A stretch of 64,000 nucleotides of DNA from Neocallimastix sp. 'constans'. Its lineage: Eukaryota. Each line of letters opens with the position of its first letter. The first letter of the stretch is position 1. The stretch lies in contig JBODTK010000131.1 of NCBI GenBank assembly GCA_050613775.1, forward strand, positions 372,001 through 436,000, given 5' to 3'. The position numbers were made by a program, and so were the translations under genes. A model generated the notes under the pieces. The model was not told the origin of the DNA and ran no database searches. It saw only the letters and a program-made list of their open reading frames with translations. Positions 1 to 38,373 of this stretch are shown one piece after another.

Positions 1-583
1 TAAATTTACAATTGGGTATTTTTTTTTTTTTTAATTCTATATTATAATTCTTCAATTATTATAAAGTTATTTATTTATTTATTTATTATTGTTATCATTT
101 GATATTTAATTTATTATTTTTTAATATATATTTTATTATTTCATATTAATTATAATTATGAAAAAAAATATCTTCTGATAATGTAAGTATTTTTCCTTTA
201 TATATTATTTAATGTTTTTATCATTTATCTGTTTTGTATAAATTATTAATAATCGTAATTCATAATATTATTATTATTTAATATATCCGATTGTGAAATA
301 TACTAAAAATTAATATTATTTAAGAATACATTTTGTATTCAAACAGTATAAAATAAATTAAATATAATATGCGCTATAGGAAAAAATGTAATTTTATTTA
401 TTATCATTTAATAACAATACATATAATTATTAATAAAAAAGATTGCTTATTAAATTATATTATATTTTAGAACTTTAATATTACATGTAATTTATTCTTA
501 AATTGAAAATATTAACATTATAGTTTTGTTTTAAGAATTAATATAATTTTTTAAAACTCCTTTATATAATATACTATAAGAGG

Positions 584-612
584 TCATACAATAAGAATAA
601 TGATAAAATAAT
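584..612 (+). promoter_or_regulatory. Invariant 29-bp upstream block TCATACAATAAGAATAATGATAAAATAAT (also at 3787, 6391, 8808, 12409)
   Basis: Identical in all five units, starting 248-256 bp before each ATG, with variable flanks. A regulatory role is inferred. Confidence 0.35.
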
Positions 613-839
613 ATAAAATGAACACTCCTATATTTTCTATCATAATCTTTTATCATTAAAAAATTTTTTTTATTATATAATTCTTTTATATATTATTATA
701 AATCAAAAAAATATATAAAGAGCAAATTTACTTTTTACTTAAAAATTAATCACTATCATTTTTAATATTAAATTTTTATATTCAAAAACAAAATAAAAAA
801 TATTGTAATAATATTTATATCATAAAATTAAAGAGAAAA

Positions 840-986
840 ATGAGAGGCCAAACTGCTGTTAATAACTCAAACTCTGTTAAAAATACTTCTTTTACTGGTT
901 CGAAGACTATAAAGAAGAAATCTTCAAGGATAATTAAAAATGTAACTGATATAGGATATCATGCTGCCATCTGTTCTATTCAATAA
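840..986 (+). CDS. 48-aa CaaX-terminated peptide, copy 1 (candidate a-factor-like lipopeptide pheromone precursor)
   Basis: Hand translation: MRGQTAVNNSNSVKNTSFTGSKTIKKKSSRIIKNVTDIGYHAAICSIQ*. A-rich context AAAGAGAAAAATG. The ORF is kept open, with no indels, in five copies while the flanks diverge. It is below the ORF-track length cutoff. Confidence 0.8.
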   Translation: MRGQTAVNNSNSVKNTSFTGSKTIKKKSSRIIKNVTDIGYHAAICSIQ

Positions 987-3900
987 ATAAAATTTATTGA
1001 ATTAAAATATTATATATTAAATAATTTCTACTGTTTTATATAATAATTACATAACTATACATTAATAATAATATATATTATAATTATATAAAAAATTGTA
1101 ATATATAAATTTAAGTTAAATATTATAAATATAGATTATTTTTTTTTAAAAAAAAATTTTTGTAAAGATTCTAATTATAAATATGTTTTAAATCCATAGA
1201 AGTAAAAACTTCTATATAGTAATTAGTAGTAATTATACTATTGTAATTATATGAAATGCTATTAATAAATATATTATGATTAATATTATATAACTAAAGT
1301 TAATATCAAAAAATTACATAAATAACAAAATAAAATACTTATTTTAAATATTAACTTTATTAATAAAAATAAAATAAAATTATTGTATAAAATTAAAGTG
1401 AAATAATTATTTATAAACTTTATTAAATATTACATAATTATTATAATATGTAATGTGATAATTCAAAATAATGGAATATAAAATAAAACAAATAATCTTA
1501 AAATTTTAAAAATAATATATATTCTTTTATACTATTAATTCAATAATAATTTTAATTTTAATTTATATATAAACTTTTTATACATATTTTTTAAAATTTT
1601 TCTATTTCGAATTAATAAAAATGATCTTAAATATTTTTATAAATATTATATATATTATTTATTTTTATTTCAATAAACTAATAAAAATAATTTATAAATA
1701 TTTAATTATTAAACTTTAAATTTCAAAAAAAAATCTATTTTTAAATATTTTCTTTATTATTTTTTTTCCTGAATAAAGTCACCAATTAAAATCTGGTTTT
1801 AATTAATTTAAATTAATCATCCAGATAATAAGTTTTAATTTATTTAATTAAATTAATTTTAATTAAAATAAAAATAAGAGAAATGAATGATTCATTTATA
1901 AATATAATAAACTTTATATTATAATAAAGCATTTTTTTTTTTGAAAATGAATAGATTAAATCTATATTATTATGCATTTTTAAATTTTAATTTTTTTTAT
2001 AAATTTTATTTTTTTTAACAAAATATTAATATTTTAATTTTAACTTTTATATTTCTTTTCAATTATTTTTATTCAAATATTGTTTATATAATGATTGTGA
2101 GTATTTAAAATTTTATATGATATGATAAACTAATAAAATATTAATATTATAAATTTATTTTAATAAAATATAAAGTTAATCGGTTAAATGAATTATATAT
2201 ATATATATATTTTTTTATATATACAATATTATGAGTGATAAATAATAAATATCTTAAATTATTTAATAAAAATAATATATTTTAATATATATTATATAAG
2301 TTATTTAATTTATTTCTTTGGAATAAATATATTATTAAATATTCAGATATTAAAGTTTTTGTCATTACGATCAATTTTAATAATTAAAAATGAGGAAAAT
2401 AAAATTTAGGAAATTTAATGTATTTCGGATACCCTAGTAACTATGAATTTATATTAACTGTATACATTACATCTTAGTAACTTATTATATAATCTTATTA
2501 TACATCTTTAACCTTATAATGGTATAAATAAGTTATAGATTTGCATATAAAGGTACTTATTTGTTAGTGTTCAAATTTATTAAAAGTTAATCCTTATCAT
2601 AGAATCATATTATCACATTATATACATTTTATGTAATATCTGAAATTAATAGAATAAATTAAAAATAATTTTTTACCTATTGAAATTAACATTTCTAATA
2701 AAATAGTAATTTTCAACTCAAAGAATTAATAAATTTTAAAAAATTTATTATGATATTAACATTATTAAAAATTCATATTTTAGTAATTAGTATATATATA
2801 TATTATATAAAATCTAATATTCTTTTAATATAGAGATTATTAAGTAATTAATCAAATAAAAAATTTACTAATTAACTATCTCTAAATATTCAATAAAACA
2901 AGAATAATTAATAAAGTAAATTGTTTTCTAATAGGAATATTCAAATTATTAAATGATTGTTTCAATCTGTTTGTGTCAATAATATTATAATATTTTATTT
3001 ATTATAATTTACTCTTAACTTTTATTTTAAAAAAAAATATTTATTTTTCATTTAATACATTAGTATTATTTTAATTATCCATATTAATTTAATTATAGTT
3101 TATTTAAAATAATATCTATTTAACTTTTTTAAACTTTAGAAATTGACTATAATTTTTATATGATTAATAATAAATATATTTATTATTAAAAGTATTAATT
3201 TTATTTTTTTTATTTTGAATTAATATTAATATTTTATTAAAAAAAATTTTTTTTAATAATTAAATTAGATAAAATAATTATTCAAACAATAAAAATTATT
3301 CTGAATATTATTTGATATTTAAATTATTATCTTAAAATATTTATTTTTTAATTCACATTAATAATAATAATAAAAAAAAAATATATCATCTGATAATGTA
3401 AAGTATTTTTTCCTTTAAATGTTATTTGATGATTTTATATTCTAAAAGCTTAATATTATATCTTATTATCAATTAACAATAATATTAATATTTAATATAT
3501 AGGATGGTGTAATATATTAACATTAATATTATTTTTGAACATATTATATATTCAATTATTAAAATAAATTTAATATACTACTCAATATTGAAAAATGTTT
3601 AATTTTATTTTATATTTTTTAAGAATAATACATATAATTAATAATAAAAATTATTAAATTATACTATAATATATAACCTTATTATTATATGATATTTATT
3701 CTTAAATTGAAATATTAATATTATCGATTTGTCATAATTATTTATTTAATTTTCAAGAACTCTTTCATATAATATACTACAAGAAGTCATACAATAAGAA
3801 TAATGATAAAATAATATATATTGAATACTCCTTTATTTTCTATCATAATCCTTAATCATTAAAAATATTTACCGTATCATAAATTTCAATTATTTATTAA

Positions 3901-4034
3901 TATAAATAAAAAGATATATATATAGAGAAAATTTTCTTTGTTACTAAAAAAAATTACTATTATTTTTAGTATCAAATTTAAAATTTATAAAAAAAGTATA
4001 AATATATATATATTTTGTTAAGGCAAAGAGAAAA

Positions 4035-4181
4035 ATGAAAGGTCAAACTGCTATTAATAACTCAAACATTGTTAAAAATACTTCTTTTACTGGTTCTAAA
4101 ACTTTAAAGAAGAAATCTTCAAGGATAATTAAAAATGTAACTGATATTGGATATCATGCTGCCATATGTACTATTCAATAA
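4035..4181 (+). CDS. 48-aa CaaX-terminated peptide, copy 2
   Basis: MKGQTAINNSNIVKNTSFTGSKTLKKKSSRIIKNVTDIGYHAAICTIQ*. Confidence 0.8.
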   Translation: MKGQTAINNSNIVKNTSFTGSKTLKKKSSRIIKNVTDIGYHAAICTIQ

Positions 4182-6640
4182 ATAGAAATTATTGAATAAG
4201 AATATTATATATAAAATAACTACTGTTGTTTTATATAATAATTACATAATTACATAATTATGTAATAGTAATAATATATACTACTAATCATTTAAAGAAT
4301 TAAAAAATATAATATATAAATTAAAATTAAATTATAAAAATATAGATTTTTTTTTAAATAATTTTTGTAAAAATTTTAATTATAAAATGTTTTAAATACT
4401 TAAAAGTTTTCAATTTTGTATAGTTATTAAATTTATTAATTTTTATATAGTATATTGTTAATATCTTAATTATAAAAATTTATATAATATAATAAAAGTT
4501 ATTGTCAATATATTTCAAAAATAATATTATTAAATATATATTTTAAATGTATATTATTTTTTTTAATAAAAATAAATAATACTATTGAATAAATTTAGAG
4601 ATAAATAATTATTCATTATTATATATTTCTAAATACTACATTAAATTGTATTATAATTCTTAATTTAATTTTATATAAAGAAATATAAAATAAAACAAAT
4701 AAACTTAAAATTTTAAAAAAAATATACATTCTTATATACTATGAATTCAATAAAAATTTTAATTAAAATTTATATATATATTTATTAAATATTTTTTAAA
4801 ATTTTTATATTTCGAATTAAAAAAAATAATCTTAAATATTTTTATAAATAATATGTATTATTTATTTTTATTTAAAATAATAAAAAAAAATTTAATGAAT
4901 ATTAAATATTAAACTTTAAATTCAAAAAAAAATCTATTTTTAAATATTTTCTTTATTATTTTTTTTCCTGAATAAAGTCACCAATTAAAATCTGGTTTTA
5001 ATTAATTTAAATTAATCATCCAGATAATAAGTTTTAATTTATTTAATTAAATTAATTTTAATTAAAATAAAAATAAGAGAAATGAATGATTCATTTATTA
5101 ATATAATAAACTTTATATTATAATAAAACATTTTTTTTTGAAAATGAATAGATTAAATCTATATTATTTATTAACAAAATATAATATTTGAATTTTAACT
5201 TTTTTATTTTTTTTCAATTATATTTATTCAAATATTATTTATAAAATGATTGTGAGTATTAATAATTTCATATGAAATGATAAACTAATATAATATTAAT
5301 ATTATAAATTTATTTTAATAAAATATAAAGTTAATCGGTTAAATTAATAATATATATTTTTTTATATAGAAATTATTTTTTAGTAATATTTTTGTGATAG
5401 ATTTAGTATTATTTTATAATATAATTATTAATACTTAAAAAACATTAATAAACTTGTAAAGAAATTAAAAATATACAATTGAATGTTTCTATTTTTAAAT
5501 TTAATATATTTTCTTTTTAAATATTGGCATATATACAATAAAATGAGTAATAAATATATTAAATTACAAAAAAAAAATGGTATATATTAATTTATATTAT
5601 ATAAATTACTTAAAATTATTTCTTTGTGATTTATATTAAATGCATTCTTTACATTTATTAATTTATTATATATCTTTAATCTTATGATGCTATAAATAAG
5701 TTGATGATTTGCATATAGAGGTACTTATTAATTAGTGTTTAAATTTATAATATGTTATTACATTCATTACTAGAGAATTTGATTACTATAGCCTTAGTGA
5801 ATGCTATAAAAATTTTATATTCTATTTAAACAATTAAACCGAATAAAAATATTAAAATAAATCTATTGAAAAAAAAAAGACATTAAAATAGTGAATTATA
5901 ATGCAAGGAATTAATATATATTAAAAATTATACTATAAAATAAAAATTATTTTAAATTTATATTTCAGTAATTATTATATGTATAAATGTTTATAATATA
6001 ATCTTCTTTAATATTTGGAATTTTAAATATTTAATAAAATTAAAAATTTATTAATTAACCATTCATAAACAATAAAAAAAATTTTGATTAATATATAAGA
6101 TGGTGTAATATATTAATATTAATATTATTTTTTAACATATTATGTATTCAAATATTAAAATAAATTTAATATACAATTCAATGTTGAAAAATGTTTAATT
6201 TTATTTAATATTTTTTAAGAATGATACATATAATTAATAATAAAAATTATTACATATTAAATTATACTATAAAATATAACTTTAATATTATATATTATTT
6301 ATTCTTAAATTGAAAATATTAAAATTATAGTTCTGTTTTAATAATTTATTTAATTTTCAAGAATCCTTTTAAATAATATACTACAAGAAGTCATACAATA
6401 AGAATAATGATAAAATAATATAAACTGAATACTCCTTTATTTTATGTTATAATCCTTAATTATTAAAAATATTAATTGTAAAATGAATTTCTATTATTTA
6501 TTATTAATAATAAAAAGGTATATATAAAAAAGAAAAATTACTTCGTAACTAAAAAAAATTAATATTATTTTTAGTATCAAATTTTAATATTTATAACAAA
6601 AAAATAAAAATATATATATTTTGTAAAGTTAAAGAGAAAA

Positions 6641-6787
6641 ATGAAAGGTCAAACTGCTATTAATAACTCAAACACTGTTAAAAATACTTCTTTTACTGGT
6701 TCTAAAACTTTAAAGAAGAAATCTTCAAGGATAATTAAAAATGTAACTGATATTGGATATCATGCTGCCATCTGTTCTATTCAATAA
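6641..6787 (+). CDS. 48-aa CaaX-terminated peptide, copy 3
   Basis: MKGQTAINNSNTVKNTSFTGSKTLKKKSSRIIKNVTDIGYHAAICSIQ*. Confidence 0.8.
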   Translation: MKGQTAINNSNTVKNTSFTGSKTLKKKSSRIIKNVTDIGYHAAICSIQ

Positions 6788-9058
6788 ATAAAATTTATTA
6801 AATTAGAATATTATATATTAAATAATTTCTACTGTTTTATATAATAATTACATAACTGTACATTAATAATAATATATATTATAATTATATAAATAATTAT
6901 TAAATATAAAATATAAATTATAGTTAAATAATATAAATATAGATTACTTTTTTAAAAAAATTTTTTAAAAATTCTAATAATAAAAATATTTAAAATGTTT
7001 TAATATTTTCAATTTTATATAATAATTAAATTAATTTAATTATTATAGAGTATGTTGTTTATAACTTTTTATAATGATTAATATAATTATAATTTAAGTA
7101 ATAATTAAAAAAATTTCATAAACAATATTATTATATAATCACTAATAATAAAAAAACTTTAATTTACTTGTAAAGAAATTAAAAATATAAAACTGAATGG
7201 TTCCATTTTTAAATTTAATATTTTTTATTGTTAAATATTGGCATATATACAATAATATGAGTGATAAATATCTTAAATTATTTAATGAAAAAAATATATT
7301 TTAATATATAATATGTTATTTTAATTTATTTCTTTGTAATAAATACATTATTAAGTATTCTTATATTAAAGTTTTTCTTTTAAAGATTAATTTTTTGATT
7401 TAGAAATTAGGAAAATAAACTTTAGGATTCGTAATTTATGTTTCGGGTTTTATATAAGCTTTGAAATTAATTTAACAACATTACATAAACCTTTGCTACT
7501 TATTATGTGTCTTTATCTTCTTAATGATATAAATAGGTTGTAAATTAGCATATACACATACTTATTTGTTAGTGTTTAAATTTATAATATATTATTGCAA
7601 TATTTACTACGGAATCCTATTACTTCAGCCTTTGTTAATACTATAAACATTTTTTTTTAAAACATAAAATAATAGAATGAATTAAAATATAATAATAAAT
7701 ATATTAAAATTTTAACTGACAATAAAATATTAATTTACAATGCAATGAATTAATTAATAAATTTTAAAAAAATATACTATAATATAATAGGAAATTCATA
7801 TTTCAAAATTATTATATAAATAAATTATTTATAATATAATATTCTTATATATTTAGAGTTTTAAATATTTAATAATACTAAAAAATATATCAATTAACTA
7901 TATTAAATATTCAATAAAACAAGAATAATTAATAAAGTAAATTGTTTTCTAATAGGAATATTCAAATTATTAAATGATTGTTTCATTTTGTTTGTGTCAA
8001 TAATATTATAATTTTTTATTTATTACAATTTACTCTTAACTTTTATTTTAAAAAAAAATATTTATTTTTCATTTAATACATTAGTATTATTTTAATTATC
8101 CATATTAATTTAATTATAGTTTATTTAAAATAATATCTATTTAACTTTTTTAAACTTTAGAAATTGACTATAATTTTTATATGATTAATAATAAATATAT
8201 TTATTATAAAAAGTATTAATTTTATTTTTTTTATTTTGAATTATTAATAATATTTTATTAAAAAAAAAAATTTTTTTAATTAACTAAATTAGATAAAATA
8301 ATTATCCAAACAATAAAAATTATTCTGAATATTATTTGATATTTAATTTATTATTTTATAATATTTATTGTTTAATTCACATTAATAATAATAAAAAAAT
8401 ATATCATCTGATAATGTAAAGTATTTTTCCTTTAAATGTTATTTGATGATTTTATATTTTAAAAGTTTAATATTATATCTTATTATCAATTAATAATAAT
8501 ATTATTATTTAATATATAGGATGGTGTAATATATTTATATTAATATTATTTTTGAACATATTATGTATTCAATTATTAAAATAAATTTAATATACTAATT
8601 AATATTGAAAAATGTTTAATTTTATTTAATATTTTTTGAGAATAATACATATAATTAATAATAAAAATTATTAAATATTAAATTATACAATAAAATATAA
8701 CTTTAATATTATACGATATTTATTTTTAAATTGAAAATATTAATATTATAGCTTTGTTTTAATTATTTGATTTTCGAAAACTCCTTTATATAATATTTGA
8801 TAAAGGATCATACAATAAGAATAATGATAAAATAATATATATTGAATACTCCTTTATTTTCTATCATAATCCTTAATTATTAAAAATATTTACTGTATCA
8901 TATATTTCAATTATTTATTAATATAAATAAAAAGATATATATATAGAGAAAATTTACTTTATTACTAAAAAAAATTATTATTATTTTTAGTATCAAATTT
9001 AATATTTATAAAAAAAAATATAAATATATATATATATTTTGTTAAGGCAAAGAGAAAA

Positions 9059-9205
9059 ATGAAAGGTCAAACTGTTATTAATAACTCAAACATTGTTAAA
9101 AATACTTCTTTTACTGGTTTTAAAACTTTAAAGAAGAAATCTTCAAGGATAATTAAAAATGTAACTGATATTGGATATCACGCTGCCATATGTACTATTC
9201 AATAA
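9059..9205 (+). CDS. 48-aa CaaX-terminated peptide, copy 4
   Basis: MKGQTVINNSNIVKNTSFTGFKTLKKKSSRIIKNVTDIGYHAAICTIQ*. Confidence 0.8.
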   Translation: MKGQTVINNSNIVKNTSFTGFKTLKKKSSRIIKNVTDIGYHAAICTIQ

Positions 9206-9726
9206 ATAGAACTTATTGAATAAGAATATTATGTATAAAATAACTACTGTTGTTTTATATAATAATTACATAATTACAAAATTATGTAATAGTAATAATA
9301 TATACTACTAATCATTTAAAGAATTAAAAAATATAATATATAAATTAAAATTAAATTATAAAAATATAGATTTTTTTTAAATAATTTTTGTAAAAATTTT
9401 AATTAAAAATATTTTAAATACTTAAAAGTTTTCAATTTTGTGTAGTAATTAAATTTATTTAATTTTTATATAGTATATTGTTAATATCTTAATTATAAAA
9501 ATTTATATAATATAATAAAAGTTATCATCAATATTATTCAAAAATAACATTATTAAATATATATTTTAAATGTATATTATTTTATTTATAAAAATAATAA
9601 ATATTATTGAATAAATTTAAAAAGAAATAATTATTCATTATTATGTATTTCTAAATACTACATTAAATTGTATTATAATTCTTAATTTAATTTTATATAA
9701 AGAAATATAAAATAAAACAAATAAAC

Positions 9727-10556
9727 TTAAAATATTAATATTTTGTTAAAAAAAATAAAATTTATAAAAAAAATTAAAATTTAAAAATGCATAATAATAT
9801 AGATTTAATCTATTCATTTTCAAAAAAAAAAAATTGATTTATTATAATATAAAGTTTATTATATTTATAAATGAATCATTCATTTCTCTTATTTTTATTT
9901 TAATTAAAATTAATTAATTAAATAAATTAAATTTTATTATCTGGATGATTAATTTAAATTAATTAAAACCAAATTTTAATTGGTGACTTTTATTCAGGAA
10001 AAAAAATAATAAAGAAAATATTAATATAAAATAATATATATTCTTTTATACTATGAATTCAATAAAAATTTTAATTTTAATTTATATATAAACTTTTTAT
10101 ACATATTTTTTAAAATTTTTCTATTTCGAATTAATAAAAATGATATTAAATATTTTTATAAATATTATATATATTATTTATTTTTATTTCAATAAACTAA
10201 TAAAAATAATTTATAAATATTTAATTATTAAATTTTAAATTTCAAAAAAAAATCTATTTTTAAATATTTTCTTTATTATTTTTTTTCCTGAATAAAAGTC
10301 ACCAATTAAAATTTGGATTTAATTAATTTAAATTAATCATCCAGATAATAAGTTTTAATTTATTTAATTAAATTAATTTTAATTAAAATAAAAATAAGAG
10401 AAATGAATGATTCATTTATAAATATAATAAACTTTATATTATAATAAAGCATTTTTTTTTTGAAAATGAATAGATTAAATCTATATTATTATGCATTTTT
10501 AAATTTTAATTTTTTTTATAAATTTTATTTTTTTTAACAAAATATTAATATTTTAA
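9727..10556. repeat. ~295-bp inverted repeat (9727-10022 / 10263-10556) with a 240-bp spacer
   Basis: The left arm is the near-exact reverse complement of the right arm, e.g. TTGGTGACTTTTATTCAGG vs CCTGAATAAAAGTCACCAA. Confidence 0.9.
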
Positions 10557-12660
10557 TTTTAACTTTTATATTTCTTTTCAATTATTTTTATTAAAATATT
10601 GTTTATAAAATGATTGTGAGTATTAAAAATTTTATATGATATGATAAACTAATAAAATATTTATATTATAAATTTATTTTAATAAAATATAAAATTAATC
10701 GGTTAAATGAATAATATTTATTATTTAATATAGAAATTATTTTCAATAAATATTTTAATGATAGAATTAATATTATATAATTACTAAAATTTAAAAAACT
10801 TTATTAAACTTATAAAGAAATTAAAAATATACAATTGAATGTTTCTATTTTTAAATTTAATATATTTTATTGTTAAATATTGGCATATATACAATAATAT
10901 GAGTGATAAATATCTTAAATTATTTAATAAAAATAATATATTTTAATATATATTATATAAGTTATCTTTAACCTTACAATTCTATAAATAAGTTATAGAT
11001 TTGCATATAAAGGTACTTATTTGCTAGTGTTCAATTTTATTATATGTTATTATTATAATCCTTACTATAGAATCATATTACAACAGTCTTAGTGAACGTT
11101 ATATATATTTTATATAATATCTAAACCAAAAGAATAAATTAAAAATAATTTTTAACCTGTTAAAATTAACATTTATTATTAAATAGTAATTTTCATCCAA
11201 AGAATTAATAAATTGTAAAAAAATTACTATGATATAACATTATTAAAAATTTTTCAGTAATTATTATATATATATTATATAATCTTCTATTTTTTTAAAT
11301 AGAGATTATTAAGTAATTAATAAAATAAAAAATTTATTAATTAACTATCTCTAAATATTTAATAAAATAGGAATAGTTAATACATTAAATATTTTTCTAA
11401 TAGAAATAATCATTTTAATAATAATTTTTTCAATCTGTTTTTCTTGATAATATTATAAATTTTTATTTATCATAATTTATCTTTATTTTTTTTTTAAAAA
11501 AATAATATTTATTTATCTTTAAATATATTAATATCATTTTAATTATCCATATTAATTTAATAATTGTTTATTTAAAATAATATTTATTTAACTTTTTTTT
11601 AAATTTTAAACATTTAATATAATTTTTAATTATTATGAATGATTATAATATTATTAATTATAAAATGTATTAATTTTTTATTTAGAAGTAATATTAATAT
11701 TTTATTAATAAAAAGATCATTTTTTTAATAATTAAAACAGATAAAATAATTATTTAAAACAATAAAAATATCAAACTATTGTTTGTAAATATTATTAGTA
11801 ATAACTTCTTGTATTAATATATTATTTGTAAAATTATAGATTAATAATATAGGTAATTTTTTTTATTAATTTTTTATTATTATTCTTTTATTTTTTTAAA
11901 GTTGTTGTTTATTTATCTGGATATTATTTGATTTTAATTTATTATCTTATAATATATATTTTTTATTATTTTACATTTATAATAATAATAAAAAAAATAT
12001 CATATGATGATATAAAATATTATTCCTTTAAATATTATTTGATGATTTTATATTCTAAAAGTTTAATATTATGTTTTATTAGCAATTAACTATAATATTA
12101 TTATTTAATATATAAGATGGTGTATTACTTTAATATTAATAATATTTTTTGAACATATTATGTATTCAAACATTAAAATAAATTTTTAATATACTACTCA
12201 ATATTGAAAAATGTTTAATTTTATTTAATATTTTTTAAGAATGATACATATAATTAATAATAAAATTTATTACATATTAAATTATACTATAAAATAGAAC
12301 TTTAATATTATATAATATTTATTCTTAAATTGAAATATTAATACTATAGCTTTGTTTTAATGATTATTTAATTTTCAAGAACTCCTTTATATTATATACT
12401 ATAAGAAGTCATACAATAAGAATAATGATAAAATAATTTAAACTGAACACTCCTTTATTTTCCATTATAATCCCTAATTATTAAAAATATATATTGTATT
12501 ATAAATTTCTATTATTTATTAATATTAGTAAAAATATATATATAAAGAGTAAATTTACTTTGTTACTGAAAAATTAACTATTAATACTTTTAGTATCAAA
12601 TTTAAATATTTAAAAAAAAAATTATAAATATAAATATATTTTGTTAAGTTAAAGAGAAAA

Positions 12661-12807
12661 ATGAAAGGTCAAACAGTTGTTAATAACTCAAACATTGTTA
12701 AAAATACTTCTTTTACTGGTTCTAAGACTATAAAGAAGAAATCTTCAAGAATAATTAAAAATGTAACTGATATCGGATATCATGCTGCCATATGTACTAT
12801 TCAATAA
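12661..12807 (+). CDS. 48-aa CaaX-terminated peptide, copy 5
   Basis: MKGQTVVNNSNIVKNTSFTGSKTIKKKSSRIIKNVTDIGYHAAICTIQ*. Confidence 0.8.
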   Translation: MKGQTVVNNSNIVKNTSFTGSKTIKKKSSRIIKNVTDIGYHAAICTIQ

Positions 12808-14389
12808 ATTGAACTTATTGAATAAGAATATTATATATAAAATAACTTCCGTTGTTTTATATAATAATTACATAATTACAAAATTATGTAATAGTAATAA
12901 TATGTATTAATAATTATTCACAGAATTATTAAATATTGTATATAAATTAAAGTTTAATAATATTATTATAGATTATCTTTTTTAAAAAATTTTGGAAAAA
13001 TTCTAATTATAAAGATGTTTTAAATACTTAAAAGTTTTCAACTTTATATAGTAATTAAAATAATTTAATTATTATATAATACGTTTTTAATGTTTTTAGT
13101 TTAATGATTAATATAATATAATTAAAGTTATTATTAAAAAATTCAATAAATAACATTACTAAATATTTATTTAAAAGGTATTGATAAGAAAATAACTAAT
13201 TTAATAATAAAATAAAATATTTTGATGTATATGAATTGTATTCTCATGAAATATAAATATAAATTTATCAATAATTTAAGTTAATTAAGAAATTAAAATA
13301 TATTAAAAATATATTAATAATTTAAAACTTTGTTCTTTAATAATTATAATAAAATAAATAACATGTCTTTTGTTTATTTTGAAGAGGAGAAGAAAAGTAA
13401 ACAAAAGAAAAGAAAGAGGAAATTTAATAATGAAATATTAATATTAATAAATAAAATATATAAAATTAACTAGTATAATTAATAATACGTGTTTATTAAT
13501 TATTAGTGTTATTTATAAAATTATTTTATTTTTATTTGTAGTTTACATTAAATATATTAAAAACTATTATTTATATTTAAAGGGTAAATATAAATAATAA
13601 AGGTCACTTTACAAATACTTTAAAAAGTAATAAAGTGGTCTTGTTTATATAAATTTTTCTTTAAACTAGTATGTTCAGAGAGAAATTTATCAGGTATATT
13701 TTTTTTTTTTAAAAAAAATAAATAAAATTATTTAATAAATTTAGAGTGAAATAATTTTTTATAACTAAAACTAAATATTATTAAATTTTACATTTGAATA
13801 TGACATAATACTTAATGTAATAATTCAAAATTAATGAATATAAAATAAAACAAATAAAATAAAAATTTTAAAAAATAATAGAAGTAATTATACTATGAAT
13901 ATAATATAAATTTTTTTATTTAATACATTTTAAATAGTTTATAAAATTAGTCTAATTATAATTGATAAAAAATGTAATTTAATATTTTTATAAATAATAC
14001 GTATTAAAAAAGATTTTTTCCCATAAAAATTAATATTTTTTAATTTAATACCATTTTAAATAATTATGTAAGAAAAATATAAATAAATTAAAATAAAAAT
14101 AAAAATAATAATAAAAATAAAAATAAAATAATTAGTTAAATAATATAAAAAAGAATAAAGTATTAATAAAAATTAAAACAAGATAAAATAAAAATAAAAA
14201 TAATATAAATTATTTTCTATATCCAGTTAAAAAAATTTTTTTTTTTTATTTGATAATTAATAAATTGATTTGAAATGACTAAAATTAAGTTATTTTTACA
14301 AGATGTCATTTATTATAATTTGCAATAAAAAAGAAATGAATAGAAATAATTTTATATATTATTTTTTAATAATAAAAATTTTGGGATAT

Positions 14390-16449: not shown

Positions 16450-16620
16450 ATTTTATGTCTGTTGAAGTGGAAATGAATCAATAATAAAATTGTTTAGTTG
16501 AACATGTATCTGATATAAATAAAGAAGATAGGTATGATGAAATAATATTATTTGATGCCTTTGAAAGTGGAAATGAAGTCATAATAAAGTTTTTAGTTGA
16601 ACCTGGAACAAAATTAAAGG
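16450..16620 (+). pseudogene. Ankyrin-repeat gene fragment
   Basis: SGNESIIK/CLVEHVSDINKEDRYDEIILFDAFESGNEVIIKFLVEPG, with a frameshift and stops. Confidence 0.75.
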
Positions 16621-17469
16621 AAAATAGCAAACCAATATTTTTTATTGTAACAAAATCATTAATAAAATATATGAATATATTTTAAAATTAATTTAAAAAT
16701 AAACATAGCTATTGAAAAAAGATAGTTATATAAATTGTTGTAATAAAAACAAAAAAAAAATTTTAAAAATAATTGTCTAAAGAAATTGAAATACTTTAAA
16801 AATTATTTTAATAAAATATCATTTGTAATTATAATTTTAAAAGGAACACAACATGACATTATTGGATAGTAGTATTTATTCATGATCAAGAAAAAGTCAC
16901 AGAAATTAATTAAGAGAGCGTTTCTTCTATACCAATCCTACTTAATATAAACTATTTTTTTATGTGAATGATTTAAATATATATAAATGTATTATTCATT
17001 TTAATAATATACTTTACTTATCTTCTCAATGGTTAAGTCTGTAAGTAAAAAAATTAAAAAAAAAAAAAAAAAAAAAAAAAGAAAAAGAATGATTTCATTT
17101 TGTAACTTTAATTTATTTCTATTTCCAATTAGAATATTATTAATATTTTTTAAATAAAAATAATAATAACAATAAAATTATAATAATTATTATTAATTTC
17201 TGGTAATATCAGTAATGCAAACAAAATTTTATTTTAGAATAATTTACACAAGTTTAATCAATTGACTGATTATTTATAGTTAAATACTTATACCAAACAT
17301 TAAAGGTGAAATAATAACAATAAAAGCAAGTTTAATTTTTAAATTTATTTTTAGTGAATAATGAAGAAAAAATATGACAGAAATATCTAAAAAAAAAAAA
17401 ATAAGTATTATTATTAGGTTTATTATGAAAATAATTTAATTTTTTTATTTTTATCATTTATTATGTATT

Positions 17470-18260: not shown

Positions 18261-18986
18261 AATTATAATTATATTTAGTAAATAGAATAAATATATTAAA
18301 ATTTTTAATTTAAAATTTTTTTTTTTTTGGCTATTTGATTAAAAAGTTTAAAAGTTTTAAAATACAAATATACTATAATATACACCATAATATAAAATAA
18401 TATAAAATGTCATGATTATTCTGTAATATAGTGTAAATAATAATTCTTTTTTCCTTTTTTATTTTGTTTAATATACATATTATTGGATGAATTGGATGAA
18501 CAATAAAAGAAATTCTTTCTATACAAAAAGATGATTCGTTTTATCAATACTATTGTCCTATATTAAATTTTAATTTTAAAAAATGAAATATTATATTATA
18601 ATATATTTATTGAATTTAATATAATATATATTTAATAAAGAGAATAATATTATCAGATAAAATAAAAAAAAAAAAAAAATCATATTTTTAATAAAAAAAA
18701 TAAAATCACATTCTAACATTTTAATAAAAATAATATATACATATATATAAGTAATATATAAATAATAGAAAAAATAATATAAAAAATATATGATACAATA
18801 CATAATAATTTGATATGTCATGATAAATTTTTTTTTTTTTTTTTTTTTTTTTAATTTTTCTATATAAATCAAATGAATTTCTTTTTTTTATTCCCTCTGT
18901 TATTAAGGAGATACATAAAAAAAATTTTTTTATAAAGAATATTTGGTTATTAAAAGGGAATACAAAAAGGTAGTACAAAAAGGAAA

Positions 18987-19154
18987 ATGTTATTCAAGAA
19001 CTTAATAAAGATCGCAATTGGTTTAGTTTCAATTGCAGCTTTCGCCCAAGCAGACGGTTGTAAAGAAATTGAAAAAAAATTGAAAAATAAGATTGATGAA
19101 TGTGTTACTAATGGAGATTTCATTGAATTGTAAAATATGATTATATTTATATAT

Positions 19155-19211
<57 letters not shown>

Positions 19212-21301: not shown

Positions 21302-22230
21302 TTTATTTTATTTTATTTTAAATATTAATCACTTTACCTTATTTTATATATAGTTATATGGATGAAAATTTAATTGACGACGAAATTCCTGAAAGTTTAA
21401 ATAGTCTTCCAAATCTTAAAGTCTTGTAAGTATTTAAAGATAATTTTTATATATAATATTATAATATTATATATATATTATATAGTATTAATGTGTAATT
21501 TTAAATTTTTTAAATTTATGTTATTATTATTAAATAATAATATATTTATTCTTATTATGTTTATATTTATGTTTTTTTTTTTTAATATACCAATGACAAT
21601 AAAAAAAAAAAAAGTTCCATTGCTGATAATAAAAAGATTAAAGGAAAGACTTTAACTAATGATAAACTTGAAGAGTGTTACTATGATAAAAATTATGATC
21701 TTTGCAAACCAAAAGATATGAAATGTTTAGAAAAAGAAGAATATGAAATTAAATCTTGTAGTGGTAATACTCCATCTAGTGATAAAATTTCTACTAATGG
21801 TAAATGTGGTGCTGAATATGGTAAATGTCCATCTGGTGAATGCTGTAGCAAATATGGTTGGTGTGGTTCTTCCGATAAGCACTGTAAAGTTGATAGTGGC
21901 TGCCAAGCTAAGTATGGAACCTGTAAAACAACTGAAAAGATTTCTACCAATGGAAGATGTGGTGCTGAATATGGTAAATGTCCATCTGGTGAATGCTGTA
22001 GCAAATATGGTTGGTGTGGTTCTTCCGATAAGCACTGTAAAGTTGATAGTGGCTGCCAAGCTAAGTATGGAACCTGTAAAACAGCTGAAAAAATTTCTAC
22101 AAATGGTAAATGTGGTGCTGAAGATGGTAAATGTCCATCCGGTGAATGCTGTAGTAAATATGGTTGGTGTGGTACTTCCGATAAGCACTGTAAAGCTGGT
22201 TGCCAAAAAGCCTTTGGTAAATGTAAATAA
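18987..22230 (+). CDS. Secreted leucine-rich-repeat protein with three C-terminal hevein/CBM18 chitin-binding domains (12 exons, ~481 aa)
   Basis: Hand-spliced exons: 18987-19129, 19241-19309, 19585-19644, 19783-19851, 19958-20029, 20377-20445, 20541-20609, 20701-20769, 20964-21032, 21120-21188, 21354-21425, 21615-22230. All introns are GT-AG, phase 2; the spliced frame is open (1446 nt). Signal-peptide-like start MLFKNLIKIAIGLVSIAAFAQA. LRRs such as NNQITELPDELGDLENLEIL. Three CG...CPSGECCSKYGWCG...HC...C modules. Confidence 0.92.
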
Positions 22231-24369: not shown

Positions 24370-25560
24370 CCAATTGCCAATAAGAAAAGAAATATCCACT
24401 AAATATTTTATTAAATCTTCATCGATGTTTTCATTTCCAACAAACAATTTCTAATATTTTATTGGATTTGACCTCAGCCCCAAATAGTTTATGATATTTA
24501 GTCCAGATTCTTCTTCTCATTTACACAAGTAGCACAAAGAGGGTATTACCATTAAAATCTTCACAGTTGACATCGGCACCATTTTCCATTAAATATTTTT
24601 CGAAGAGATTCGTTTTTATAACGGCAAATATAAATTAAGGGAGAACATTTAAATCGATAGGTACGATTGATATCCGGATCCATGTTCCACTAAATATTTT
24701 ATGACGGCTTCATTTTTGCATTTGAGATCTGACATGCTCCATTTAAAGGGAAACAAAATTACTTATTCTAGTGGTTGATATCAGCCCCTTGTTCAATTAA
24801 ATATTTTATGATATTTTTTTTTTTTTTTTTTGAATTTCTCCTACAACATGCCTGTATTAAAGGTGTACAATTATATTTGTCTTCTTGGTTGACGTCAGCA
24901 CCATAAGCATTTAATTTTTTTTTTTCAATGGCCTCATGACCTTTTGCACAAGCTTCATAAAGATATTCTCCGGTATCATTTGATTGTATAACATATTTTT
25001 CATTCGATGTCATTTTTTTTTAAATTAATCATTGATATTGGTTGTTGATTTTTATATAAAGTACATAATTTAATTATGATTTCATTAATCATAAAATTTA
25101 GAATATTTAAGGAAAACATTTAATAAATTAATTTCTATTTTTTTTTCTTTTGGAATAATTTTTTAATGAAAGAAGACTCTAATACTATATCATCATTTTT
25201 TTCTGCTAAAAAAGTATTTAATTTTAAATCGGAAAGAGAGTTTATTTTATAGAGCTCGGAAAGGAATATCTACTTTCTTAAATTGGCTTATTTTCTTAAA
25301 TATATCATTATAATGAAGTGGCATTCTCAAAATATAAGACCACAACTAAAAGACCTAAATAAATTTCAATTTCTATTCATCATTTCTAAATTCACTTTTT
25401 TGAATATATCCTAGTTATCAATTGTTTTTTGCAGAAGTTTTCATCATCAAAAAAAAATCATTTCTCTTGTCCTCCTCAATTCTTTCTTTAATTATTTATA
25501 ATAATTCTTTCATTTTTAATAACTACACTTTGTGCTCTGTTTTTAATTATATGAATTTTC
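24370..25560 (-). pseudogene. Ankyrin-repeat protein pseudogene
   Basis: ORF 24768-25013 has LYEACAKGHEAI...GADVNQEDKYNCTPLIQAC...IIKYLIEQGADIN. Further repeats (VIKYLVEHG, KYLMENGADVNCEDFNGNT, LIKYLVD) continue past stops and frameshifts. The upstream boundary is uncertain. Confidence 0.8.
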
Positions 25561-30734: not shown

Positions 30735-32244
30735 GGTTAGATCTTTATATAATGAATTAATAAATATTTATGATAGTTTAAGTGAATTATATTCAATTAA
30801 TGATATTGAATAATAATTAAAACTAGTACCGATAGTGAAATGGTTCATGAATTATGTAATGCCATAACTAATAAAATTAGTATCGAAAATTCATAAGATG
30901 AAAATGTTAAATCTTCTAATAATTCTTTGAAGGTTCCTAGATTAGAACGTGTAGAAAATAGAGATTTAATAAATAAAATTAAAGATAATTCCATTTCAAG
31001 TGAGGATAAAAAATATATTTTGAAAGGTATGGAACATGCAATAAATAATTCTCAAGAAAAAAATTTAGATAATCAATTGTATAAAAATATTAACAATATT
31101 AACGCACATATTACTAATCAAATTGAGCAATTAAAGCAATTTTCATCACCTATTGGTCATGAATTAGCAACTACAAATATAGTATCTTTGTCATCAGCTT
31201 ATAATGACTTAGCGACAATTGTCATTTATAATAATAAAATATATAGTAATGATATAAATAATAATTATCCTATTAATATTCTTGAATTTGATAATGAATT
31301 TAATGATAGTGTAAATTATATCATAAATAAACCTTACAATGAGGCTATGCTAAATATTGCTATGAATAACTCTGCACTTTACAATAGTGATCTTGAAATT
31401 AATTCTGGTAATAAGTACAATTGGGGAGGTAATACAGTATACGAAGTATCAAATTCCTTTTTGTCGAAATTTGCTAAAGACAAAAATTCGTTTAGTAGTA
31501 AAAATGAATTTACCTCTAATTTTATAGCAAATGCGGATGGTGCTTCCTATATTATGTTAAAACAATCTTATTAAATTAAATACAATTATATCAACTATCA
31601 GTCACATGGTATTAGAAGTCTAAGTGATGTAAATGACTTAGAGCATAACTATAATAGATTAGGGTTTAATCATGCTCAAAGAAATATACAATCCATTGAT
31701 ACTTATCATAGTACTCAATTTTTCAGTGCTTTATATGTTGTAGCTCAATATAATCCTAATTTAACGCCATCATCAACTAAAGACGATAATAATAATAATA
31801 ATAAAAATTAATACATTATATAAAGGAGCTTCGAATTATAAAGAGATGTTCGATGAAATGAATAACTATGAAGAAAGTTTAAGGAATAATAATAAATTAA
31901 CAAATGAAATAAAAAATCAAATAAATATTGCTTCTAATACGTTTGTAGCTGATATTCAAATTACTTCTTATAAACTTGCTAAAATGGCTGGGCGTGAAAG
32001 TCAAACCACTTTTAGTACATTTGTTAATAAACTTAGTTATACTATTGCTCATGCATCTAATTATTTGAAAAGTAATGCTGCTTTATTAAACAATAATCAT
32101 AATTTACCTCAAATAAAATTCAACCAAAATACTTTAAATACAGTCCATAATTATAATCTTAATAGAAATAATATTAATAAAAATAATAAAGAATTGAGAA
32201 TATCACACAATAAATCAATAATTAAAACGGCTAGTAAAAAATAA
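30735..32244 (+). pseudogene. Disrupted terminal exon of a large Asn-rich protein of unknown family
   Basis: Coding-like sequence follows a TAACAG acceptor. ORF 30927-31574 continues in frame past one TAA for about 78 more codons, then shifts frame at an (AAT)n tract into ORF 31846-32244. Confidence 0.65.
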
Positions 32245-33225
32245 AAATATATAAATAAATTTTAAAGAAAATGTTTTAAAACTCATTTTCAAAAATAATA
32301 AAAGTAAATATAATAAAAAAAAATTAGTTTAATATAAATTATATATAATTTATATTCCGAGACATTATAAAACTTACTATTATTTTATAAATAATTTATA
32401 TTGTAATTAACAAAGAAAAAATATATATTTCTATATAATAATATTTAAATAATTTAAATATGAATATTATAAATAATGGTATTGAAAAATAAATTATATT
32501 TTTAATTTATTTTTTTAAAAATTTATAAATAAAATATTATTATTACTTAATATAATATCAAGTATAATATTTATTTTCTTTTAAGCTATATATATAATAT
32601 TTAAAAAAAAAATTATTAAATTAATTAAATTATGAAATATAATGTCATTAATATTTTATTAAATTTAACTATTCTAGAACTGTGATTTTTAATTTATATT
32701 TTTTGAAAAGTATATTAGTATATTTATATATTCTATTTTTATTTTATTTTTAAAATTCAATATTAAAAAGTATTTTTAATAGAAATAAATAATTATAAAT
32801 ATATCATATACTTTTAAGGTATATTAAATAAAATAATTATTGAATATATAATTATTTATTTAATTTTTTAAATATTAAAAAATTTAATATAAACTGTAAT
32901 AATATAATAATTTTAAAATTTTTTATTTTAATTTTATTAAACACCAAAAGTAAATATTGAGAAAATTAGATATATTTTTAGCGGAGCATTTTATATATAA
33001 TACTTAATATTTAATTTTATTTTATCTTTATTTTTTTATAATTACAAAAGTGTATATTTTTGACAAGGTTACATTTTATTTCTTTTAAAATTTTATTTAA
33101 ATATAATAATATTCTGGTTGGGTAAATTATATTAAAGTCATTATTAAGTATTTATTTTTTTTATATTCTAACATTCCTCCTAAAATATGACTTTCCTAAA
33201 ATGTCATATTTTTATTTATATTATT

Positions 33226-36200: not shown

Positions 36201-37867
36201 AATAACTACAAATAGCGCACTTTGAGTTTATGTCGATTTTTAAAATTTTATTTTTGATACTATTGATATTGAAATAAGCAAAACGACGATGCCATAAATT
36301 TAGTTTATCAATTGATTTCAAATGTGCATAATTAACTTTAACCAAATTATTATTATGTTGGTTGTTTTGAAAATTTAATGGTTGAGTTGAAATCCAAAAT
36401 TTAAATGTATTAGATTGGTTCGATTTAATTAATAATATTCTTTGATTGTTTTCGTCATAAATTAGTGCGTATGATTTATTATTAGTATTATTGAAAATTA
36501 TTTTGTATCCTTGTTGTATAAGATTTCCAATAGATAATAAATTTTTATTTATTTTTGGTGAGTAATAAACATTCTTAATGGTTATTTTATGATTACTAAT
36601 GTATTCTATGAAATCTCCTTAAATTGTGTTGATATAACTTGATTATTAGCTAAATAAACTTTGTCATTACACTTTTGAATATTATGTAATTTATTTAAAT
36701 GACCAGTGATATTTATTGATGCGCCAGAGTCCAATATCCAACACATCATTTCTTTTTGTTTATTTTCTTCGTTTTGTTTATTTATTTCGGCAAAATTAAT
36801 ATCAAGATTTTCTTGAGAATTGTAATCCTTGGTAAAAGCAAAGACATAGCTTGTATCGTACCTTTCTTTTTCCATGAAATTTGCATAATTTCTACGTTTA
36901 TTATATTTTCTTTTAAAATTATTTCTTCTCCGTTTGAAAATTTTTCTTCTTTTGTTATTATTTTTATCATCTCTTCTAATTTTACAGTTATAAAAGAAAT
37001 GGCCTCATTTACTACAGTAATTACATCTACCATTTTTAGTCTTTTTAGTAAATGTTTTTATTTTAGTAAGTTTTTCTTATTTGTATTAATGTTAGTATTA
37101 TTTTCTATTAAAAAATATTTGATTATTTTGATTATTTGTTAAGGATTCTTTTAAGTTTGAAGAGATGATTTCAGGCAATACATCCTTAACATATTCACTA
37201 CATTTATTCCAATCATTTTAAATTGGAACACATTAATCCAATGGAGTTCTTCTGGGAGACTTCTGTTAAGGATTCCCACTTTAACACTTGATTTAATGTC
37301 ATTATCTATTTTCTCGAGTTCATCAATAGTGTTCTGTAGTCCAGAAATAAAAATATTGATATCCACTTCTGGGTTATACTTCAAATTATCGAGCTTATTT
37401 TTAAGTTCTAATTTACGCGTGTTGATGTTTTTGGTAAAAGATCTTTTTAGAATCTTCCACAATTCAAAGGCAGTTTTATTTGATCTTTGCACAATGTCTT
37501 GGGTTTTTTCTCCAATACTGTTTAGGACGATCCATTTTGTTTTAATATCGTTTTTGATATCAACTACATTGGTGTTTTTGTCATACACCAATGTGTCATC
37601 AAATTCATCTTCGATATACTCAGATAGGTCATCTTGTATATCTCTTTTCCTTAACTTCTTAACCTTTTCTTTGGTGATATAACCAACTAGATTGTTAATT
37701 GAAAATAGATGAAGGATTTTGGTTCTCCATCTATTATAGTTTTCAGTATTTAATTCAACTGCTCTGTTAAAATTTTCAGAGCAGTTAAATTTAATTGTTG
37801 GCCTGATGTCAATGGGTTCTTCAATGGTATTTACTTCATTTCTATTGTTTCTTCTTGTGTTAGCCAT
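33226..37867 (-). pseudogene. copia gag-pol, fragmented
   Basis: gag 37151-37867; CCHC knuckle CNYCSK*GHFFYNC (~37000); protease WILDSGAS; LWHRRF plus integrase core (35791-36345); RT SSRWIFK..KSRLVA, QIDITAAYLNA, YVDDIL; RNase H YVDSDYGG..STAESEY..NLADGFTK. Multiple stops and frameshifts. Confidence 0.95.
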
Positions 37868-38373
37868 TGTGGAGAGTTTTAAATTAATTTATTTTTTTTT
37901 TAATAATTTATTAATATTTTATATTATGCAAATATTTTTTAAATAATAATTGATGAGTGATATGTTGTATATCTGGATTGTTTATTTATACATATTCAAT
38001 ATATTGATTAAAATCTTATTCTATTTTCATTAAATAAATGTAAATTGAAATAAATATTGTTTAATATTTCTATGATGATTTATAATAAACTTTAATAATA
38101 TATATTTTTTGATAATTGGTTAAGTTATATTTATTACTTAATAAAAAAAAGGGTTATAAAATAATATATTTCAGAATTATGATTGGTTTCTATTTTTATC
38201 TTATTTTTAATGTAATATTTTTCATTATGCCATTTGAAATTAATTTAATTAAACATTTATATTATTGGTTTTTTATGTTTGAAAAAGGTATTTATACTTG
38301 ATTTACATTTATTAATATTGGAAAAAAAAATATATATTTTTTTTTATTTTTATTGTTAATAATTGACAATAAT

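What the first reader, a model, noticed from the sequence alone, without database searches (positions are those of the whole stretch)
840..12807. Five-gene cluster of candidate a-factor-type (farnesylated) peptide pheromone precursors in an apparent anaerobic gut fungus
Seen: five intronless 48-codon ORFs, missed by the ORF track, with no signal peptide, a polar/basic N-terminal region and a C-terminal C-[ST]-I-Q. Established: CaaX with X=Q is a farnesyltransferase substrate. Ascomycete a-factor/M-factor and basidiomycete pheromones are made from short, often multicopy, signal-less CaaX precursors processed by Ram1/Ram2, Rce1/Ste24, Ste14 and Axl1-type enzymes, exported by Ste6-type ABC transporters and sensed by Ste3 GPCRs. 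The layout echoes yeast Mfa1 (..KEKTSSEKKDNYIIKGVFWDPAC-VIA, here ..KKKSSRIIKNVTDIGYHAAIC-TIQ) and Ustilago Mfa1 (..SPIGYSSC-VVA); both are recalled from memory and short matches may be chance. The characterised signals of early-diverging fungi are non-peptide (sirenin, trisporic acid), and no sexual stage is known for gut fungi. Inference: a lipopeptide signalling system (mating, zoospore or quorum-like), with mature peptide IIKNVTDIGYHAAIC or VTDIGYHAAIC, farnesylated and methylated.
Basis: partly seen in the sequence, partly recalled or inferred. Interest (0 to 1): 0.92.

Follow-up and report, generated by a model that had tools for sequence, protein, structure and literature searches.

The report
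Gut-fungus a-factor-like lipopeptide gene cluster
Five tandem copies of a tiny unnamed gene, in what is likely an anaerobic gut fungus, encode a 48-residue peptide ending in a lipid-attachment motif; it is predicted to be cut and exported as a lipopeptide signal like the yeast a-factor pheromone, which would matter because these fungi have no confirmed sexual cycle and their annotated genomes lack the usual a-factor receptor.

Summary
Observation confirmed. There are five intronless 48-codon ORFs ending C-[ST]-I-Q-stop, one per 2.4-3.6 kb tandem unit. They behave like real genes. They are G+C islands (25-31% against 11%). Residues 25-45 are invariant, with 5 synonymous and 0 replacement changes. 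The same five variants recur in about 20 public contigs each. RNA-library contigs match copies 1, 2 and 3 without splicing; DNA carry-over is not excluded. Both tails, CSIQ and CTIQ, are in a published yeast prenylation-positive set and are predicted to be cleaved. An Asn-Val site would release the 11-mer VTDIGYHAAIC, which fits the published a-factor filter, but that Asn is expected by chance (0.77-0.96). A neighbouring protein points to Neocallimastigomycota. No homolog beyond at least 90%-identical variants was found among 1.84 billion representatives. Against a classic pheromone: Ste3 count is 0 in 7 of 7 gut-fungus genomes in a published table, no sex is known, and nothing shows prenylation, cleavage or export in this organism. 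Best reading (0.45): an a-factor-like exported lipopeptide with a non-Ste3 receptor. Mating role about 0.22. Main rival (0.3): an intracellular prenyl-anchored microprotein.

The parts
840..986 (+). Copy 1 ORF, 48 aa, ends CSIQ
   Evidence: an X18 RNA-library contig carries copy-1 letters and a loose 5' end equal to the copy-1 leader
4035..4181 (+). Copy 2 ORF, 48 aa, ends CTIQ
   Evidence: X15 contig 3984-4159 and X16 contig 3964-4147 match with 0 other letters
6641..6787 (+). Copy 3 ORF, 48 aa, ends CSIQ
   Evidence: the X17 contig shows all 8 of 8 copy-3 differences in the compared span
9059..9205 (+). Copy 4 ORF, 48 aa, ends CTIQ; recent duplicate of the copy-2 unit (94% over 1.9 kb, 3 nt different in the CDS)
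   Evidence: no listed RNA contig could be assigned to it
12661..12807 (+). Copy 5 ORF, 48 aa, ends CTIQ
   Evidence: an X18 contig carries the copy-5-specific change at 4049 plus 4051 and 4053 but not those at 4100/4104, so copy-5-like only
4137..4169 (+). Predicted mature peptide in copy 2, residues 35-45 VTDIGYHAAIC (after Asn34); identical in all copies
   Evidence: 4 synonymous changes, 0 replacements; N-X rule from bioRxiv 10.1101/2021.09.28.462209; the cleavage itself is inferred
4167..4178 (+). CaaX box of copy 2 (CTIQ; CSIQ in copies 1 and 3)
   Evidence: both motifs are in the prenylation-positive set and predicted prenylated by 4 of 4 and cleaved by 2 of 2 methods, PMC9231725 supplements
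3984..4034 (+). Likely 5' leader of copy 2, with in-frame TAA at 3999-4001
   Evidence: RNA-library contigs of three studies begin at about 3974-3985 in copy-2 terms, X16 at 3964 and 3984; contigs cannot prove a start; stop codon
3787..3815 (+). 29-bp block invariant upstream of all five ORFs (also 584-612, 6391-6419, 8808-8836, 12409-12437); candidate cis-regulatory element
   Evidence: 5 exact matches, none elsewhere in the window at up to 3 mismatches
4227..4249 (+). 23-bp block shared by all five copies about 45 nt after the stop; candidate 3'-UTR or 3'-end element
22..13334 (+). Tandem array of five diverged units (ORF spacing 3195, 2606, 2418, 3602 bp; units 75-94% alike); it begins at the window edge

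Best explanation
The five tandem ORFs encode a 48-residue signal-less peptide that is likely farnesylated at Cys45, trimmed and methylated, then likely cut after Asn34 and exported as an 11-residue lipopeptide signal, built like yeast a-factor but likely sensed by a receptor other than Ste3. Shown: the ORFs, their tandem duplication, coding-type constraint on residues 25-45, unspliced contigs in RNA libraries, and a tail that yeast enzymes prenylate. Inferred from established CaaX biology: farnesylation by Ram1/Ram2, removal of TIQ/SIQ by Rce1/Ste24, and methylation by Ste14. Inferred by analogy only: N-terminal cut by an Axl1/Ste23-type M16 protease (after Asn34, or after Arg30 for a 15-mer), export by an ABCB/Ste6-type transporter, and sensing by one of the lineage's own GPCRs (Dicty-CAR/rhodopsin-like or class C). 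Tandem copies would raise the dose, as for yeast pheromone genes. The signal could serve mate finding, zoospore aggregation or density sensing; the sequence cannot tell these apart.
For: Real gene: ORF G+C is 25-31% against a mean of 10.7% and a maximum of 23.8% in 1170 flanking windows. CDS bins are 93-95% identical between copies; the near flanks are mostly 70-90%. Residues 25-45 show 5 synonymous and 0 replacement changes, residues 2-24 show 7 replacements and 4 synonymous (Fisher p=0.034, boundary chosen after seeing the data). The five window variants are each on 19-22 public contigs, the longest 26,628 bp for all five, and 5 further variants also keep 25-45 unchanged. RNA libraries: contigs from 3 metatranscriptome studies plus one guessed-RNA run cover leader and ORF without a splice joint, matching copies 1, 2, 3 and a copy-5-like allele. 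Tail: CSIQ and CTIQ are both in the experimentally derived prenylation-positive set and both predicted cleaved, and the one C-terminal replacement (S/T at a1) keeps that status. Layout: Met within 100 codons, CaaX-stop, Asn followed by an uncharged residue 5-20 residues before Cys, several copies, invariant mature part with synonymous changes and a variable N-terminus, as described for yeast and Yarrowia a-factor genes. The residues next to Cys are hydrophobic (GRAVY +0.93) and the basic cluster is 12-23 residues away. [quoted passage not shown]
Against: Ste3-class receptors: 0 in 7 of 7 Neocallimastigomycota genomes and 0 in 4 of 4 other zoosporic fungi looked up, against 1 in each of 2 Rhizophagus rows seen (PMC12842992 Table S3). 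An earlier survey also found none in chytrids. No sexual cycle is confirmed. The Asn site is weak evidence: it has a 0.77-0.96 chance at the Asn frequency of two neighbouring ORFs, and the filter passes 100-700 candidates per yeast genome. Constraint covers the basic residues 25-33 as well as the predicted 11-mer; with the split at 35-45 p is only 0.08. The counts are small and the copies are related. No ortholog from another genus was found to test conservation of Cys and Asn. STE6-like hits may be general ABCB exporters, and the CaaX-protease expansion may be unrelated. RNA support is contigs only; DNA carry-over was not excluded and translation is not shown.
Confidence: 0.45

Rival explanations
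1. The product is farnesylated but stays whole and inside the cell. The basic cluster (K22, K25-K27, R30, K33) plus the prenyl group tether a 48-residue microprotein to the plasma membrane or endomembranes, where it acts as an adaptor, decoy CaaX substrate or structural item, for example in zoospores.
For: Net charge +7. The invariant block starts at Lys25, not at Val35. It needs no Ste3. CaaX processing is general in eukaryotes.
Against: The basic cluster is not adjacent to the Cys, as it is in Ras-type anchors (recalled). The exposed N-terminal half, which would be the functional part, is the variable one (pN/pS 0.64 against 0.00 for 25-45). No G-gamma or other Pfam family reached threshold (best FAM25, E 0.12-0.14), and no longer protein contains it (weak).
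Confidence: 0.3
2. The peptide is prenylated and exported but acts on other organisms: a cationic, lipid-tailed, membrane-active peptide against rumen bacteria, archaea or rival fungi, amplified for dose.
For: Cationic stretch plus hydrophobic C-terminal helix. Tandem amplification. No receptor needed. Found in feces metagenomes.
Against: No diversification of the active end among copies, whereas antagonistic peptides often diversify (recalled). There is no signal peptide. No family match.
Confidence: 0.1
3. The CaaX-like end is incidental, or the ORF is not translated: a lineage-specific orphan ORF or non-coding RNA carried in a segmental tandem duplication.
For: No homolog outside near-identical variants. 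About a third of all Cxxx are predicted prenylatable. Flanks are also conserved, up to 94% in one upstream bin. RNA evidence is from contigs only.
Against: Synonymous-only change in residues 25-45, an intact frame and stop in all five copies, the G+C island, and a tail that is canonical and cleavable in both variants. No Rfam match.
Confidence: 0.15

Closest known systems
Saccharomycotina a-factor precursors (S. cerevisiae MFA1/MFA2, Yarrowia a-factor) with the Ram1/Ram2, Rce1/Ste24, Ste14, Axl1/Ste23, Ste6, Ste3 pathway
   Same: Short signal-less ORF, CaaX-stop, Asn-X site 5-20 residues before Cys, several gene copies, mature part invariant with synonymous changes, variable N-terminus (criteria read).
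   Different: No detectable sequence similarity. It occurs in a zoosporic phylum whose annotated genomes have no Ste3. No known mating types. The copies form a tandem array.
Basidiomycete lipopeptide pheromone precursors (Ustilago mfa and relatives)
   Same: Short CaaX precursors that are proteolysed, S-farnesylated and carboxymethylated.
   Different: These usually lie next to a STE3-like receptor gene in the mating locus. No receptor-like ORF was seen in this window (intron-split genes could be missed), and there are no divergent alleles among the copies.
Intracellular polybasic-plus-CaaX proteins (Ras-type tails, G-protein gamma subunits)
   Same: Basic cluster and a cleavable CaaX.
   Different: No globular or G-gamma domain; the basic cluster is 12-23 residues from the Cys; only 48 residues long.
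Known sex signals of early-diverging fungi (trisporic acid, sirenin, parisin)
   Same: Isoprenoid-derived or isoprenoid-bearing signal, if the reading holds.
   Different: Those are non-peptide terpenoids; this would be a ribosomal peptide.

Membership tests
a-factor-type lipopeptide pheromone precursor | Short single-exon ORF (<100 codons) without signal peptide | tested here: met
   48 codons; unspliced RNA-library contigs; no hydrophobic core
a-factor-type lipopeptide pheromone precursor | C-terminal CaaX that is farnesylated and cleaved | tested here: met
   By motif only: CSIQ and CTIQ are in the yeast prenylation-positive set and predicted cleaved. Not shown in this organism. The CAAX dictionary of the yeast filter paper is an image and was not seen.
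a-factor-type lipopeptide pheromone precursor | Asn-X N-terminal processing site 5-20 residues before Cys | tested here: inconclusive
   Asn34-Val35 is present and invariant, but chance expectation is 0.77-0.96
a-factor-type lipopeptide pheromone precursor | Several copies, strongest conservation in the mature region | tested here: met
   5 copies; pN 0.00 and pS 0.22 in residues 35-45, pN/pS 0.64 in 2-24; p=0.034 for the 25-45 split, 0.08 for the 35-45 split
a-factor-type lipopeptide pheromone precursor | Conserved among related species | tested here: inconclusive
   Only variants at least 90% identical were found. No gut-fungus genomes are searchable here, and short ORFs are usually not annotated.
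a-factor-type lipopeptide pheromone precursor | Cognate Ste3 (PF02076) receptor in the genome | not testable with these tools
   No genome held. A published table gives 0 in 7 of 7 gut-fungus genomes, so this is probably not met.
a-factor-type lipopeptide pheromone precursor | Export by a Ste6-type ABC transporter; Ram1/Ram2, Ste14, Axl1/Ste23 present | not testable with these tools
   STE6-like hits are reported in gut-fungus genomes; the others were not looked up
a-factor-type lipopeptide pheromone precursor | Mating-type-specific expression and mating bioactivity | not testable with these tools
   No sexual cycle confirmed in the phylum
G-protein gamma subunit | G-gamma (GGL) helical domain before the CaaX | tested here: not met
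   No such Pfam match at E up to 1; model is coil over 1-34, low confidence

The most novel reading that the evidence does not exclude
This is a farnesylated peptide mating pheromone of a zoosporic, supposedly asexual gut fungus, made by the a-factor route but read by a non-Ste3 GPCR. Lipopeptide pheromone signalling would then be older than Dikarya or have arisen twice, and a synthetic peptide could be used to trigger and reveal the missing sexual stage.
Probability: 0.22. Interest if true: 0.93.

Novelty: new variant of a known kind. Interest (0 to 1): 0.72.

Why it matters
Whether anaerobic gut fungi have sex is open. They keep meiotic and mating-signalling homologs, but a homology search found no peptide mating factor (PMC6883316, passages), and such searches miss short pheromone genes. 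This locus gives a concrete 11-15-residue lipopeptide that can be synthesised and assayed, and looked for by MS. Ten literature searches (open-access library only) showed no report of a CaaX peptide pheromone gene in Neocallimastigomycota or chytrids. A positive result would change the history of fungal peptide pheromones and offer a way to breed biotechnologically useful, genetically intractable fungi. Even the rival reading is an undescribed amplified prenylated microprotein.

Tried and rejected
No genome is held, so Ste3, Ste6, Ste14, Ste24, Rce1 and Axl1 could not be searched. Word-index search: 3 of 3 candidates were near-identical variants. Longer proteins: 0 of 8 candidates scored (weak). 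phmmer on 1.84 billion representatives: 1 hit, the peptide's own cluster. ESM Atlas: no usable hit. Metagenome contigs: 587 pattern matches, 0 confirmed. A looser D-I-G-Y-H-x3-C-x3-TAA pattern gave 25 loci, none a Met-started ORF of about 48 aa in AT-rich DNA, so all were taken as chance (for 5 of the 25 the script's frame broke early, and they were counted as misses). Pfam: only FAM25 at E 0.12-0.14, below its cut-off. Rfam on 1-14000: 0. AlphaFold2 on the single sequence: pLDDT 63.7, pTM 0.17, uninformative, so no fold search was run. Exact look-up of 3 neighbouring ORFs: 0 of 3. RNA runs X15, X17 and X18 show no depth at 3720-3869; a part without contig cover is no evidence, and no DNA run or silent stretch was laid as a control. 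The two joints listed in X18 had 20-23-letter sides and were taken as artefacts. High-depth short pieces at 3888-3932 and 4299-4411 are unrelated AT-rich contigs. 'Last exon of a larger protein' was rejected for copy 2 by the in-frame TAA inside an unspliced contig. An HMG-box-like site upstream of copy 2 is not kept in the other copies (alignment; motif recalled) and was dropped. MSDIN-type RiPP precursor was rejected because there the core varies and the flanks are conserved (recalled), the opposite of this pattern.
Full report
Observation. tblastn finds exactly these five in the window. Each lies in a tandem unit (spacing 3195, 2606, 2418 and 3602 bp) whose copies are 75-94% alike; copies 2 and 4 are the youngest pair. 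The array starts at the window edge. The five window variants each occur on 19-22 public contigs, the longest 26,628 bp for all five, and five more variants occur on 1-2 contigs. The cluster is therefore not an assembly artefact. In 200 simulated 14-kb stretches of the same composition, a CaaX-ending ORF of 25-100 aa arose 0.02 times per stretch.

Host. The window is 16.8% G+C. It holds a three-repeat chitin-binding protein (PF00187) and retroelement remains. The ORF at 39484-40164 has a 56%-identical relative named as an Anaeromyces robustus protein (1 of 4 hits carries a species name). 22 of 24 listed runs hold the locus, mostly animal feces metagenomes. Neocallimastigomycota is likely; the species was not determined and no genome is held.

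Is it a gene? The ORFs are G+C islands, 25-31% against a mean of 10.7% and a maximum of 23.8% in 1170 flanking windows. Fourteen codons vary among the copies. Residues 25-45 carry 5 synonymous changes and no replacement; residues 2-24 carry 7 replacements and 4 synonymous changes (Fisher p=0.034 with a boundary chosen after the fact; p=0.08 if only 35-45 is set against the rest). The single replacement in the last 24 residues is Ser/Thr at the a1 place of the CaaX. A 29-bp block about 220-250 bp upstream is identical in all five units and occurs nowhere else in the window. Four runs were laid on 3720-4460, three recorded as metatranscriptomes of different studies and one guessed to be RNA. X15 holds a contig 3984-4159 identical to copy 2. 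X17 holds one, 3985-4219, with all 8 copy-3 differences. X18 holds one with the copy-1 letters and leader and one copy-5-like. X16 holds 3964-4147, identical to copy 2. None is spliced, and the copy-2 contig crosses an in-frame TAA 36 bases before the ATG, so this is not the last exon of a longer protein. The 5' ends cluster 50-70 bases before the ATG, a weak hint of a transcription start. These are contigs, with no DNA or silent-stretch control laid, so transcription is likely but not shown; translation is untested.

The tail. In the supplements of PMC9231725 (rows seen, passages), both CSIQ and CTIQ are in the prenylation-positive training set drawn from Ras61 and Ydj1 yeast screens. Both are called prenylated by 4 of 4 and cleaved by 2 of 2 predictors, like the control CVIA and unlike the shunted control CASQ. 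That paper predicts about a third of all Cxxx to be prenylatable, most of them shunted, and yeast has only 89 proteins ending in Cxxx. A canonical cleavable box kept through an a1 change is therefore unlikely to be incidental in a real gene. This is yeast data, not gut-fungus data.

The a-factor test. The yeast pheromone sieve (bioRxiv 10.1101/2021.09.28.462209; passages, first third of Results; its supplements and figures were not visible, including its CAAX dictionary) asks for Met within 100 codons, CaaX-stop, Asn followed by an aromatic or uncharged residue 5-20 residues before Cys, and several copies over 85% identical in the mature part. All are met on sequence: Asn34 is the only Asn in range and gives VTDIGYHAAIC, 11 residues, hydrophobic (GRAVY +0.93). 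The Yarrowia genes described there show the same pattern of synonymous change in the mature part. But the sieve passes 100-700 candidates per genome, and an Asn in a 16-residue span is expected with probability 0.77-0.96 at local Asn frequencies.

Relatives. None was found beyond variants at least 90% identical. The searches were the word-index search, longer proteins, phmmer over 1.84 billion representatives, the ESM Atlas, Pfam and two metagenome scans. Short fungal ORFs are rarely annotated and gut-fungus genomes are not searchable here, so this does not show absence. It does leave the key comparative test undone.

Receptor and pathway. Table S3 of PMC12842992 (rows seen; passages; the file was cut when stored and its reference column looks misaligned) gives 0 Ste3-class and 0 Ste2-class receptors in 7 of 7 Neocallimastigomycota genomes. 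It gives 0 in Allomyces, Batrachochytrium, Gonapodya, Spizellomyces and Basidiobolus, and 1 Ste3 in each of the 2 Rhizophagus rows shown, in line with PMC3834313 (passages). PMC3251606 (passages) also found none in chytrids. A review, PMC13308352 (passages), states that Ste3-like receptors occur in most early-diverging fungi; the table rows do not bear that out for this phylum. Gut fungi have 24-51 class C GPCRs and 1-2 rhodopsin/Dicty-CAR-like ones per strain (PMC5168858, passages). STE6-like, STE20, GPA1 and DMC1 homologs are present, no S. cerevisiae-type mating peptide was found by tBLASTn at E 1e-25, and no sexual cycle is confirmed (PMC6883316, passages, supplement rows). [quoted passage not shown] PMC3248468 (passages) and PMC6899921 (passages) gave background only. 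Other papers were seen as search listings only.

Mechanism. Shown: amplified, constrained, intronless CaaX microgenes present in RNA libraries. Likely (about 0.85): farnesylation, aaX removal and methylation. Less sure: N-terminal trimming and ABC export giving a diffusible lipopeptide (best reading, 0.45 overall). It is favoured by the hydrophobic invariant segment next to Cys, the drifting N-terminus and the copy number. The main rival (0.3) is a whole, intracellular, polybasic and prenyl-anchored microprotein, favoured by the +7 charge, the invariance of Lys25-Lys33 and the lack of Ste3. An exported antagonistic lipopeptide (0.1) and an incidental CaaX or untranslated ORF (0.15) remain.

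Verdict. It works like an a-factor precursor on every sequence criterion that could be tested. It cannot be filed as a member, because the Ste3 receptor appears absent from the phylum and function is untested. I found no report of such a gene in gut fungi or chytrids in ten searches of the open-access library. One unchecked note of this scan describes CaaX-ended peptide genes in Basidiobolus, a lead only. Interest 0.72: a well-supported unannotated gene cluster that makes the open question of sex or peptide signalling in anaerobic fungi directly testable, with about a one-in-five chance of being the mating pheromone itself.

Noticed in passing
window 9722-10022 and 10263-10561: About 300 bp inverted duplication (97% identical arms, about 240 bp apart) inside the unit between copies 4 and 5. 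The same segment occurs in direct orientation at 1744-2042 and 4943-5168 with higher identity (92-98%) than the rest of the units; possibly a MITE-like element or a recent conversion tract.
   Followed up: partly
window 5483-5590, 7197-7304, 10839-10946 (+): A 35-codon ATG ORF of the same length in three repeat units (MFLFLNLIY... / MVPFLNLIF...), very AT-rich with many replacements; probably non-coding repeat sequence.
   Followed up: partly
window 21586-22230 (+): Protein with three chitin-binding (PF00187, CBM18) repeats, typical of gut fungi; the 5' exon was not defined.
   Followed up: partly
window 39484-40167 (+): 227-aa Cys-rich protein with hydrophobic N- and C-termini (likely secreted or GPI-type), 56% identical to an Anaeromyces robustus hypothetical protein, no Pfam family.
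   Followed up: partly
window 33226-37888 (-), flanked by a 240-bp direct repeat at 32935-33173 and 39068-39307: Broken Ty1/copia-type LTR retrotransposon; further gypsy-like and copia-like fragments at 45000-47400, 49497-50225 and 61972-63625 (family names recalled from motifs).
   Followed up: no
window 18950-19210 (-) and 30897-32244 (+): An exon of a small likely secreted protein (hydrophobic leader) and an Asn-rich frameshifted ORF pair with no Pfam match above threshold.
   Followed up: no
window 16488-16685 (+) and 24768-25019 (-): Ankyrin-repeat fragments.
   Followed up: no
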